Below are positions 19,813 through 28,232 of a DNA stretch of 36,061 nt, one piece after another. This stretch comes from Nitrososphaerales archaeon. Lineage in GTDB: Archaea; Thermoproteota; Nitrososphaeria; Nitrososphaerales; UBA57. The stretch spans positions 1-36,061 of the forward strand of contig JAKUSK010000004.1 of NCBI GenBank assembly GCA_022449325.1, read 5' to 3'. A model generated the notes under the pieces. It made no database searches. It saw nothing but the letters and a program-made list of their open reading frames with translations, and had not been told where the DNA came from. The position numbers and the translations under genes were made by a program. Numbering within the stretch: the first letter of the stretch is position 1; every line of letters begins with the position of its first letter.

Positions 19813-19866
19813 AATTACAGGGAAGAAGAATGGGGACGGCAGGATTTGAACCCACGATCTCCCGGT

Positions 19867-19929
19867 CACTGCTGCTCCAAAGGTACATCATCCAATAAGT
19901 CAGTTTTCACCTTAATCATACATTAGCTT
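19867..19929 (-). other. Intron 2 of tRNA-Trp (37/38) with box C/D-like elements
   Basis: AAGCUAAUGUAUGAUUAAGGUGAAAACUGACUUAUUGGAUGAUGUACCUUUGGAGCAGCAGUG. It has AUGAUUA and AUGAUGU (box C/C'-like) and CUGA (box D'-like). UUUGGAGC pairs with exon G31-G37 plus intron nt 1. Confidence 0.55.
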
Positions 19930-19938
19930 CTGGAGCCG

Positions 19939-19959
19939 TTAGCGGCACAAATATGTGCT
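19939..19959 (-). other. Putative intron 1 of tRNA-Trp (between positions 28 and 29 of the anticodon stem)
   Basis: Its removal is needed to build the 5-bp anticodon stem UCCGG/CCGGG. It contains the hairpin GCAC-ATATTT-GTGC. I could not draw a clean BHB, so the boundaries are tentative. Confidence 0.5.
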
Positions 19960-20038
19960 GACGCCATAACCGAGCTAGGCTACGTCCCCCCTTTACCTGA
20001 ATTAATATTCAAGTCATAATATATATTGAATATAGTTT

Positions 20039-28045: not shown

Positions 28046-28232
28046 AAGCATAATTGTGGTCATAAAGACATTGTGACGGCCGAATCTGAAGTTGTGTGAA
28101 TAATACGTTGATGATTTTTTGGCCACCCAGCGATGTGACAGATCACAGATAGCCCCGAGTTAAGAGGAGTGGTAAGTATGGGCATTAAGCCAAAACAATG
28201 ACCTATTTCAGTCAGAGGCGGGGTATAATTAA
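28046..28232. ncRNA. Candidate structured non-coding RNA (GC-rich island in a 318-nt intergenic region); class and strand unknown
   Basis: 28121-28180 is about 53% GC (32/60, hand count), versus clearly AT-rich neighbouring spacers. Hairpin TGTGA-caga-TCACA at 28134-28147. Possible long-range pairs CCCCG (28153-57)/CGGGG (28219-23) and GTGGTCA (28057-63)/TGGCCAC (28119-25). No ORF. Confidence 0.3.

What the first reader, a model, noticed from the sequence alone, without database searches (positions are those of the whole stretch)
19831..19989. tRNA-Trp with two introns; the 63-nt intron carries box C/D-like elements and a guide that pairs across C34
The mature 75-nt cloverleaf only forms if 21 nt (19939-19959) and 63 nt (19867-19929) are removed. 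The 63-nt intron contains, 5' to 3': AUGUAUGAUUA (box C-like), CUGA (box D'-like, intron nt 27-30), an 8-nt linker, and AUGAUGU (box C'-like, nt 39-45). Then comes the 12-nt spacer ACCUUUGGAGCA. Within and just upstream of that spacer, U49-C56 form 8 contiguous pairs with exon G31-G37 plus the first intron nucleotide. With a canonical 12-nt spacer, the fifth nucleotide from its 3' end (G53) pairs with the wobble C34. In Haloferax and Pyrococcus pre-tRNA-Trp, an intron-encoded box C/D guide directs 2'-O-methylation of C34 (and U39). This looks like a miniaturised version in a thaumarchaeon. Weak points: the element following the spacer (GCAG, or GUGA three nt later spanning the splice site) is a poor box D; the first spacer has no target in this tRNA; and I could not draw a clean BHB for either intron by hand.
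Basis: partly seen in the sequence, partly recalled or inferred. Interest (0 to 1): 0.6.

Follow-up and report, generated by a model that had tools for sequence, protein, structure and literature searches.

The report
tRNA-Trp intron with half a methylation guide
This is a real tryptophan tRNA gene with two introns in a marine ammonia-oxidiser-type archaeon; its long intron is a cut-down relative of the known archaeal guide RNA that methylates the tRNA's first anticodon base, which is a modest variation on known biology.

Summary
Removing 19939-19959 (21 nt) and 19867-19929 (63 nt) from the minus strand gives a clean 75-nt tRNA-Trp(CCA). A related species that lacks the 21-nt intron confirms its borders. 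Both introns can be drawn as relaxed bulge-helix-bulge (BHB) splice motifs.

The 63-nt intron is homologous to the published box C/D guide in the archaeal tRNA-Trp intron. It has the same module order: D' (CUGA), an 8-nt linker, C' (AUGAUGU), then a 12-nt spacer ACCUUUGGAGCA (Pyrococcus has ACCUUUGGAGCC). A profile built only from 22 published guides finds this site as the best hit in the window.

D', C' and the 8-nt antisense core do not vary among relatives, while 29 of 67 intron columns do.

Three things differ from the known guide:
- The "box C-like" AUGUAUGAUUA is not conserved.
- There is no box D. GCAG sits in its place and doubles as the central strand of the BHB.
- The second guide (position 39), present in most relatives, has decayed here.

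The intron is not miniaturised; 63 nt is ordinary. My best reading is a one-K-loop guide that still directs Cm34. This is inferred, not shown.

The parts
19831..19989 (-). pre-tRNA-Trp(CCA) gene, 159 nt; mature tRNA 75 nt
   Evidence: ARAGORN cloverleaf after removal of both introns. Weak tRNA-clan hit at 19828-19989. Identical exons in 8 species.
19960..19989 (-). exon 1 (tRNA positions 1-28)
   Evidence: invariant in the 8 relatives
19939..19959 (-). intron 1, 21 nt, between tRNA positions 28/29. BHB: central helix GGCG/CGCU, bulges UC|A and AA|C, inner hairpin GCACA-UAUU-UGUGC.
   Evidence: Absent in L001, whose sequence reads straight through at this exact point with a compensatory 29:41 change. 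The BHB is kept in 23 distinct sequences, with compensatory changes in the inner helix. The minimum-free-energy fold forms the helix-bulge-helix.
19930..19938 (-). exon 2 (positions 29-37); anticodon CCA at 19933-19931, C34 at 19933
19867..19929 (-). intron 2, 63 nt, canonical position 37/38
   Evidence: ARAGORN intron call; relaxed BHB
19904..19929 (-). variable 5' part of intron 2. It holds the non-conserved 'box C-like' AUGUAUGAUUA (19923-19913), a small CUAA/UUAG hairpin, and the decayed remnant of the position-39 guide.
   Evidence: 21 of 30 alignment columns vary, with indels. No pairing to position 39 in register. The closest outgroup L349 still has a 10-bp guide there.
19900..19903 (-). 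box D' (CUGA)
   Evidence: Invariant in all 20 distinct introns of this type. It was not part of any search pattern.
19892..19899 (-). 8-nt D'-C' linker (CUUAUUGG), the loop of the K-loop
   Evidence: Variable sequence of 7-8 nt that always ends in GG in the species retrieved by exon-only patterns; the metagenome rows cannot test this, because their search pattern required GG.
19885..19891 (-). box C' (AUGAUGU)
   Evidence: Matches RUGAUGA except at the last base. One change (U to C at the last base) among the 8 species retrieved by exons alone.
19873..19884 (-). 12-nt spacer ACCUUUGGAGCA. The antisense core UUUGGAGC (19881-19874) pairs with G31-G37 plus A; G53 (19877) faces C34.
   Evidence: Same register as published guides such as Pyrococcus ACCUUUGGAGCC. 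The core is invariant; positions 1-3 and 12 vary. A profile of published guides hits 19873-19903 as the best match in the window.
19869..19872 (-). GCAG in the place of box D. It is the 3' strand of the BHB central helix, pairing with C35, U33 and C32, with C34 mismatched.
   Evidence: Alignment with Thermococcus CUGA. G-N-R-G in all 20 introns of this type, giving 3 of 4 pairs in 19 of them and 2 of 4 in L001 (GCCG).
19867..19868 (-). last two intron nucleotides (UG); with A38 they form the 3' bulge of the BHB
19831..19866 (-). exon 3 (positions 38-73)

Best explanation
The locus is the tRNA-Trp(CCA) gene of a marine ammonia-oxidiser-type archaeon (class Nitrososphaeria). It is interrupted by a conserved non-canonical BHB intron at 28/29 and by the canonical 37/38 intron.

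The 37/38 intron descends from the archaeal tRNA-Trp intron box C/D guide, but it has been stripped down. It keeps one kink-turn-type protein-binding site: D' CUGA plus C' AUGAUGU, joined by an 8-nt loop (a K-loop). Immediately 3' of C' it keeps the 12-nt guide that pairs with the anticodon loop and places C34 at the methylation register.

It has lost three things: box C, box D, and the second guide for position 39.

The proposed working, inferred rather than shown, runs as follows.
1. L7Ae binds the K-loop.
2. Nop5-fibrillarin docks there.
3. The 3' end of the guide is held not by a box C/D kink-turn but by the helix that starts at G58 (G58-N-R-G61 pairing with C35-C32 of the BHB, stacked on the anticodon stem).
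4. The fifth nucleotide upstream of that helix (G53) then selects C34 of another pre-tRNA-Trp molecule for 2'-O-methylation.
5. The splicing endonuclease then removes the intron.

Homology and purifying selection on the K-loop and the antisense core are shown here. RNP assembly, the use of the helix in place of box D, and Cm34 itself are inferred.
For: Gene and introns.

Homology:
- The module order and the 12-nt spacer match the 26 published guides (PMC2584109 Additional file 4).
- A sequence profile built only from 22 of those published guides finds 19873-19903(-) as the top hit in 36 kb on both strands (9 bits, rough E 0.03). The match covers D' through the spacer and stops exactly before box D.

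Selection:
- Among 8 species found by exon-only patterns, 29 of 67 intron-2 columns vary, but 0 of the 18 D'/C'/antisense columns do (hypergeometric 3.6e-6, not corrected for phylogeny).
- The same layout is kept in a second, abundant lineage whose neighbouring proteins are only 39-52% identical to the window's.
- The neighbouring position-39 guide has decayed with indels while these elements stayed fixed.

Chance: 0 of 200,000 shuffles give both motifs in register.

Feasibility:
- Wang, Yang and Ye 2022 (PMC9670817) showed that a Sulfolobus RNP still methylates the D-guide target when the terminal C/D motif is replaced by a 4-bp stem and C'/D' is kept. The target is the fifth nucleotide upstream of the stem.
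- Cm34 is found in tRNA-Trp of H. volcanii, T. kodakarensis and S. acidocaldarius (PMC7668247).

Expression: metatranscriptome contigs of 150-260 nt cover the unspliced precursor, ending at 19989-19992.
Against: - No box C and no box D, so two defining features of a box C/D RNA are not met.
- The proposed replacement helix has only 3 of 4 pairs here, with C34 itself as the mismatch. It uses the guide molecule's own anticodon loop, so it works only in trans.
- In other Nitrososphaeria the BHB strand lies 1-5 nt away from the box D position, so the helix model does not generalise.
- The antisense duplex is only 8 bp, including one G-U.
- No data on methylation, on RNP binding or on the excised intron. 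RNA contigs showed no spliced junction.
- The C' and TGGAGC elements were part of the metagenome search pattern, so their conservation in those rows is not independent.
Confidence: 0.55

Rival explanations
1. The intron is a relic with no methylation role. It descends from the C/D guide but no longer guides anything. The K-loop and the antisense stretch are kept because they help the long intron fold or be spliced, for example through L7Ae binding as an RNA chaperone, or through the antisense holding the anticodon loop until the endonuclease acts.
For: Box C, box D and the position-39 guide are all gone. Part of the antisense (A54-C56) also forms the inner helix of the BHB, which in L001 extends over 8 bp. 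The intron of H. volcanii tRNA-Trp and its methylations are dispensable for growth (Joardar 2008, as cited in PMC4090602).
Against: U49-G53 of the antisense are not needed for the BHB in the window's clade, yet they never vary. The exact 12-nt C'-to-helix spacing is kept in every sequence. A folding aid would tolerate compensatory change and length change, as the 5' hairpin does.
Confidence: 0.25
2. One reading: a complete dual box C/D RNA with cryptic boxes. Box C would be AUGUAUGAUUA and box D would be GCAG, or GUGA across the splice site. They would form the usual terminal kink-turn.
For: In the window UGUAUGA lies exactly 12 nt upstream of D'. GUG|A has the GA of a box D and is present in 18 of 20 intron variants.
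Against: The box C-like string is replaced by AAUAGUAUAA, AAUAGUAAAA or CUCUGGCUUU in sister species with identical exons, and it lacks the first GA that makes the kink-turn. GUGA gives a 15-nt spacer that would put the target at G31, at the edge of the duplex. It becomes GUAA in L300/L310.
Confidence: 0.06
3. Different gene model: a single intron or another tRNA identity, as in ARAGORN's tRNA-Ser(GGA) with a 75-nt intron. The motifs would then be chance.
For: ARAGORN run with its intron option on the raw region returns that model.
Against: That model has a mismatched anticodon stem. L001 lacks the 21-nt intron and reads directly as tRNA-Trp. The BHB of intron 1 is conserved with covariation in 23 sequences. 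0 of 200,000 shuffles reproduce the motif pair.
Confidence: 0.02

Closest known systems
Intron-encoded box C/D guide of archaeal pre-tRNA-Trp (Haloferax volcanii; Pyrococcus sR50; 26 examples listed in PMC2584109 Additional file 4)
   Same: It lies in the canonical 37/38 intron of tRNA-Trp. The order is D', linker, C', 12-nt spacer. The spacer sequence is nearly identical (ACCUUUGGAGCA against Pyrococcus ACCUUUGGAGCC and Methanosarcina ACCGUUGGAGCA), with the same nucleotide facing C34. The size is similar.
   Different: No box C. The box D position holds GCAG, which is part of the BHB helix. The D' guide for position 39 is lost. C' ends in U. In Thermococcus a second GGAG downstream of box D makes the BHB, whereas here one short stretch has to serve at the box D position.
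BMG1, an engineered methylation guide with the terminal C/D motif replaced by a 4-bp stem and C'/D' kept (Wang, Yang and Ye, RNA 2022, PMC9670817)
   Same: One intact internal K-turn/K-loop, a 12-nt D spacer, and a plain helix where box C/D would be. The rule 'fifth nucleotide upstream of the stem' lands on G53:C34 if the helix starts at G58.
   Different: BMG1 is synthetic and was tested with Sulfolobus proteins at 70 degrees C. Its stem is a perfect 4-bp terminal duplex. Here the helix is 3 of 4 pairs, is made with the tRNA's own anticodon loop, and its use by Nop5 is untested.
tRNA-Trp introns of other Nitrososphaeria, Bathyarchaeia and Desulfurococcales
   Same: D' CUGA, C' AUGAxGx, a 12-nt xxxYCUGGAGCx spacer, and no CUGA box D at the canonical place.
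   Different: Most of them keep an 8-11-bp D' guide in register on position 39. The window's clade and the abundant 53-54-nt lineage have lost it.
Multi-intron archaeal tRNA genes with BHB introns at non-canonical positions (Marck and Grosjean 2003; Sugahara 2008; reviewed in PMC4090602)
   Same: The second intron at 28/29 has a relaxed BHB (central helix, two 3-nt bulges and a strong inner helix). Thaumarchaeota are reported to have the alpha2-beta2 endonuclease that accepts such motifs.
   Different: Nothing unusual. This intron is shared with Nitrosothermus and Geothermarchaeota tRNA-Trp genes.

Membership tests
Box C/D sRNA (methylation guide) | Box C (RUGAUGA) near the 5' end | tested here: not met
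   The only candidate, AUGUAUGAUUA, lacks the first GA and is not conserved in sister species.
Box C/D sRNA (methylation guide) | Box D (CUGA or xxGA) directly 3' of a roughly 12-nt guide | tested here: not met
   GCAG (G-N-R-G in relatives) follows the 12-nt spacer. GUGA lies 3 nt later and is not conserved. The profile match stops before box D.
Box C/D sRNA (methylation guide) | Internal C'/D' pair able to form a K-turn or K-loop | tested here: met
   CUGA, 8 nt, AUGAUGU. Tandem G-A pairs, a U-U pair and a C27:G44 pair can be drawn. D' is invariant in 20 variants and was not part of any search pattern.
Box C/D sRNA (methylation guide) | Antisense element with the target at the fifth position upstream of box D or D' | tested here: inconclusive
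   There is an 8-bp antisense to G31-A38. C34 is at N+5 only if one counts from the homologous box D position or from the helix that starts at G58. No box D exists to count from.
Box C/D sRNA (methylation guide) | Assembly with L7Ae, Nop5 and fibrillarin; genes present in the genome | not testable with these tools
No binding data exist.
Archaeal tRNA-Trp intron guide (sR50 type) | Lies in the 37/38 intron of tRNA-Trp, with a D guide antisense to the anticodon loop in the published register | tested here: met
   A profile of 22 published guides gives its top window hit at 19873-19903.
Archaeal tRNA-Trp intron guide (sR50 type) | D' guide antisense to the 3' half of the anticodon stem (position 39) | tested here: not met
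   At most 3-5 pairs, and out of register, in the window's clade. Relatives have 8-11 bp in register.
BHB (bulge-helix-bulge) spliced archaeal intron | Two 3-nt bulges carrying the splice sites, separated by a 4-bp helix and flanked by at least one further helix | tested here: met
   Intron 1: 4 of 4 central pairs plus a 5-bp inner helix, conserved with covariation. Intron 2: 3 of 4 central pairs, the anticodon stem as outer helix and a 3-bp inner helix, a relaxed form. Cleavage itself was not tested.

The most novel reading that the evidence does not exclude
The ammonia-oxidiser-type tRNA-Trp intron is a natural 'one K-turn plus one plain helix' methylation guide. The central helix of the BHB splice motif has taken over the structural job of the terminal box C/D kink-turn, so the same four nucleotides (G58-G61) serve both fibrillarin positioning and intron excision. 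Under this reading the pre-tRNA in its splicing-competent fold would be the trans-acting guide for Cm34 on a second molecule. That would answer the question left open by Wang, Yang and Ye (2022): whether guides with a C/D motif replaced by a stem exist in nature.
Probability: 0.3. Interest if true: 0.7.

Novelty: new variant of a known kind. Interest (0 to 1): 0.45.

Why it matters
The tRNA-Trp intron guide is the textbook case of a tRNA intron with a job, but it has been described mostly for Euryarchaeota. This locus and its relatives show two things. The guide is also inherited in ammonia-oxidising-type archaea, which are globally abundant. There, selection has kept only half of the box signals plus the C34 antisense.

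If it still works, it is a natural counterpart of an engineered design, and it relaxes the definition of a methylation guide. That would also mean box-based sRNA finders miss such guides.

If it does not work, it is a clear example of which parts of a decaying guide are kept for splicing.

Either way it is testable if cultured Nitrosopumilus strains carry this intron type, which was not established here.

Tried and rejected
- ARAGORN on the raw window found no tRNA. With its intron option it gave a wrong tRNA-Ser model.
- Rfam has no family that matches the intron. Only a weak tRNA-clan hit and noise came back.
- One genome scan (T-arm pattern) was too generic and mostly brought in bacterial tRNAs.
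- A scan with 5'-exon and anticodon patterns recovered only the same 9 loci.
- GUGA across the 3' splice site as a box D paired with C', using GG/CC as stem I, was rejected. The spacer would be 15 nt, the target would be G31, and the G is not conserved.
- A kink-turn made of G37-A(intron 1) and G63-A38 at the two splice sites was rejected, because it is not general in relatives.
- A terminal stem within the excised or circularised intron (G3C4U5/A57G58C59) exists in the window but has no counterpart in the 53-nt lineage.
- Alternative splice registers 36/37 and 38/39 give no BHB when worked through by hand.
- A regular-expression scan of the window for canonical dual-guide C/D sRNAs found none.
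- RNA-seq contigs from 12 runs showed only the unspliced form and no joints.
- The papers by Clouet d'Orval 2001, Bortolin 2003, Singh 2008 and Joardar 2008 are not held.

Full report
**1. The gene and its introns**

On the minus strand, 19989..19831 reads as a 159-nt precursor. Removing 19939-19959 and 19867-19929 leaves 75 nt, which ARAGORN folds as tRNA-Trp(CCA). With only the 21-nt piece removed, ARAGORN itself calls the 63-nt intron after position 37. On the untouched sequence ARAGORN finds nothing. With its intron option it gives a poor tRNA-Ser model. Rfam gives only a weak tRNA-clan match over 19828-19989.

**2. Relatives**

Exon-only patterns found eight species with identical exons, all uncultured Thaumarchaeota/Nitrosopumilales-type MAGs. 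L003 is identical to the window. L001 lacks the 21-nt intron and reads straight through at exactly the predicted joint, with a compensatory change of pair 29:41. This fixes the borders of intron 1.

Intron 1 lies between positions 28 and 29. Its BHB has a central helix GGCG/CGCU, bulges UC|A and AA|C, and an inner hairpin GCACA/UGUGC. The same intron, with compensatory changes in the inner helix, occurs in 23 distinct sequences, including Nitrosothermus and Geothermarchaeota. The minimum-free-energy fold forms this helix-bulge-helix. A two-intron tRNA-Trp is therefore ordinary for this class. Thaumarchaeota are reported to have the alpha2-beta2 endonuclease that accepts relaxed BHBs (PMC4090602).

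**3. The 63-nt intron is a homologue of the known guide**

The published compilation of 26 tRNA-Trp intron guides (PMC2584109, Additional file 4) shows one fixed layout: box C, a guide for position 39, D', a linker, C', a 12-nt guide xCCxUUGGAGCx, then box D.

The window has CUGA, 8 nt, AUGAUGU, then ACCUUUGGAGCA. For comparison, Pyrococcus has ACCUUUGGAGCC and Methanosarcina has ACCGUUGGAGCA.

A sequence profile built only from 22 published guides finds 19873-19903(-) as the best hit in the whole window. The match covers D' through the spacer and ends exactly where box D should begin (9 bits, rough E 0.03). In 200,000 shuffles of the intron, the D'-C' motif and an in-register antisense never arose together.

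The intron is not miniaturised. By the coordinates given with them, the published guides span about 50-89 nt, and the median tRNA-Trp intron is 65 nt.

**4. What selection keeps**

Among the eight species retrieved by exons alone, 29 of 67 intron-2 alignment columns vary, with indels. None of the 18 columns of D', the C' core and the 8-nt antisense varies (hypergeometric 3.6e-6, not corrected for phylogeny). Within the spacer, positions 1-3 and 12 vary, and the eight pairing positions do not.

A metagenome scan added a second, very abundant lineage with other exons and a 53-54-nt intron of the same build. Its neighbouring proteins are only 39-52% identical to the window's. In those rows C' and TGGAGC were required by the search pattern, but D', the spacings and the tail were not.

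**5. What is missing**

- The 'box C-like' AUGUAUGAUUA is confined to the window, L003 and L008. Sister species have unrelated sequence there.
- The box D position holds GCAG (G-N-R-G in relatives). GUGA across the splice site is not conserved.
- The D' guide pairs over 8-11 bp in register on position 39 in most other Nitrososphaeria, many Bathyarchaeia, Desulfurococcales and Thermococcus, and in the nearest outgroup L349 (10 bp). It has decayed in the window's clade and in the 53-nt lineage.

A survey of about 100 archaeal tRNA-Trp genes found by exon patterns shows that lack of a CUGA box D is general in these non-euryarchaeal lineages. Thermococcales have the full canonical set plus a second GGAG for the BHB.

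**6. Splicing motif of intron 2**

With the cut at 37/38, the motif is as follows:
- The anticodon stem is the outer helix.
- U62 G63|A38 and A36 G37|A1 are the two bulges.
- C32-C35 pairs with G58-G61 to form the central helix (3 of 4 pairs, with C34 always the mismatch).
- G3C4U5/A54G55C56 is the inner helix (8 bp in L001).

The four nucleotides at the box D position are therefore the BHB strand. The unconstrained fold prefers the cis guide:anticodon duplex (-51.5 kcal/mol) over the forced BHBs (-38.6 kcal/mol). That fits a precursor that switches between a guide form and a splicing form, as is discussed for the euryarchaeal case.

**7. Mechanism**

For H. volcanii, the literature reports that the intron RNP acts in trans and sequentially (PMC7994747). 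The published layout places the C34 antisense directly upstream of box D and the position-39 antisense upstream of D'. From my own recollection of Singh et al. 2004, which is not held in the library, the C/D side guides C34 and the C'/D' side guides U39.

Here the side expected to guide C34 has lost its boxes, yet the C34 antisense and the other K-loop are the most conserved parts. Wang, Yang and Ye (PMC9670817) showed that a Sulfolobus RNP still methylates the D-guide target when the terminal C/D motif is replaced by a 4-bp stem and C'/D' is kept. The target is the fifth nucleotide upstream of the stem. They left open whether such guides exist in nature.

In the window, the helix that starts at G58 puts G53:C34 at that fifth position. 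I therefore favour a one-K-loop guide that still directs Cm34 (0.55). A non-methylating relic kept for folding or splicing is the main rival (0.25).

Weak points of the favoured reading:
- The helix is imperfect and works only in trans.
- In other Nitrososphaeria the BHB strand is offset by 1-5 nt.
- The duplex is only 8 bp.

**8. Expression**

Metatranscriptome assemblies from 12 runs contain short contigs (150-260 nt) that cover the unspliced precursor and end at 19989-19992. No spliced or circular joints were seen. This shows that the precursor is present as RNA (or comes from contaminating DNA). It does not test the junctions.

**9. Known or new**

No paper in the searchable library describes this guide in Thaumarchaeota. 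The 2008 list has one crenarchaeon and no thaumarchaeon. Earlier agents of this scan reported comparable one-K-loop tRNA intron guides in DPANN and Asgard genomes. Those notes are leads, not evidence. I class this as a new variant of a known kind.

**10. Limits**

- Several key papers are not held.
- The taxon of the 53-nt lineage was not determined.

Noticed in passing
window 19990-20030 (minus strand, upstream of the tRNA): An A/T-rich block (ATATATATTATGACTTGAATATTAATTCAGG) just upstream of the tRNA is conserved in the syntenic relatives L003-L005, L007 and L008. RNA contigs end at 19989-19992. This looks like a TATA-type promoter with a start at or just before the mature 5' end, so there would be little or no leader.
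   Followed up: partly
L349 (metagenome contig Ga-type), tRNA-Trp region: This is the nearest outgroup with window-like exons. It has three introns (a further one in the D-loop) and still carries a 10-bp position-39 guide. It brackets the loss of that guide in the window's clade.
   Followed up: partly
L177, L190, L132, L207 (genome contigs): Contigs binned as Deltaproteobacteria, Patescibacteria and Neisseriaceae MAGs carry archaeal tRNA-Trp genes with C/D-type introns (Nitrososphaeria-, Bathyarchaeia- and Micrarchaeota-like). They are probably mis-binned contigs.
   Followed up: no
L131-L242, Micrarchaeota tRNA-Trp loci: Micrarchaeota tRNA-Trp introns share a different build: AUGUUUA after the splice site, UGAGC...GC, GAUGAUGA, GGAUCUGGAA, then AUGAAGUAACC. 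The antisense ends in GGAA rather than GGAG. I did not analyse them.
   Followed up: no
window 28103-28122 (+): The third-best hit of the guide profile (2.8 bits, E 3) is GUUGAUGAUUUUUUGG. It lies inside the GC-rich intergenic island that another first-reader note flagged as a candidate ncRNA. By eye I found no convincing C/D layout.
   Followed up: partly
all 20 AOA-type intron variants: In the BHB central helix, the nucleotide opposite C34 is always C or U, never G, so the wobble base is the one unpaired position of that helix. I have no explanation for this.
   Followed up: no
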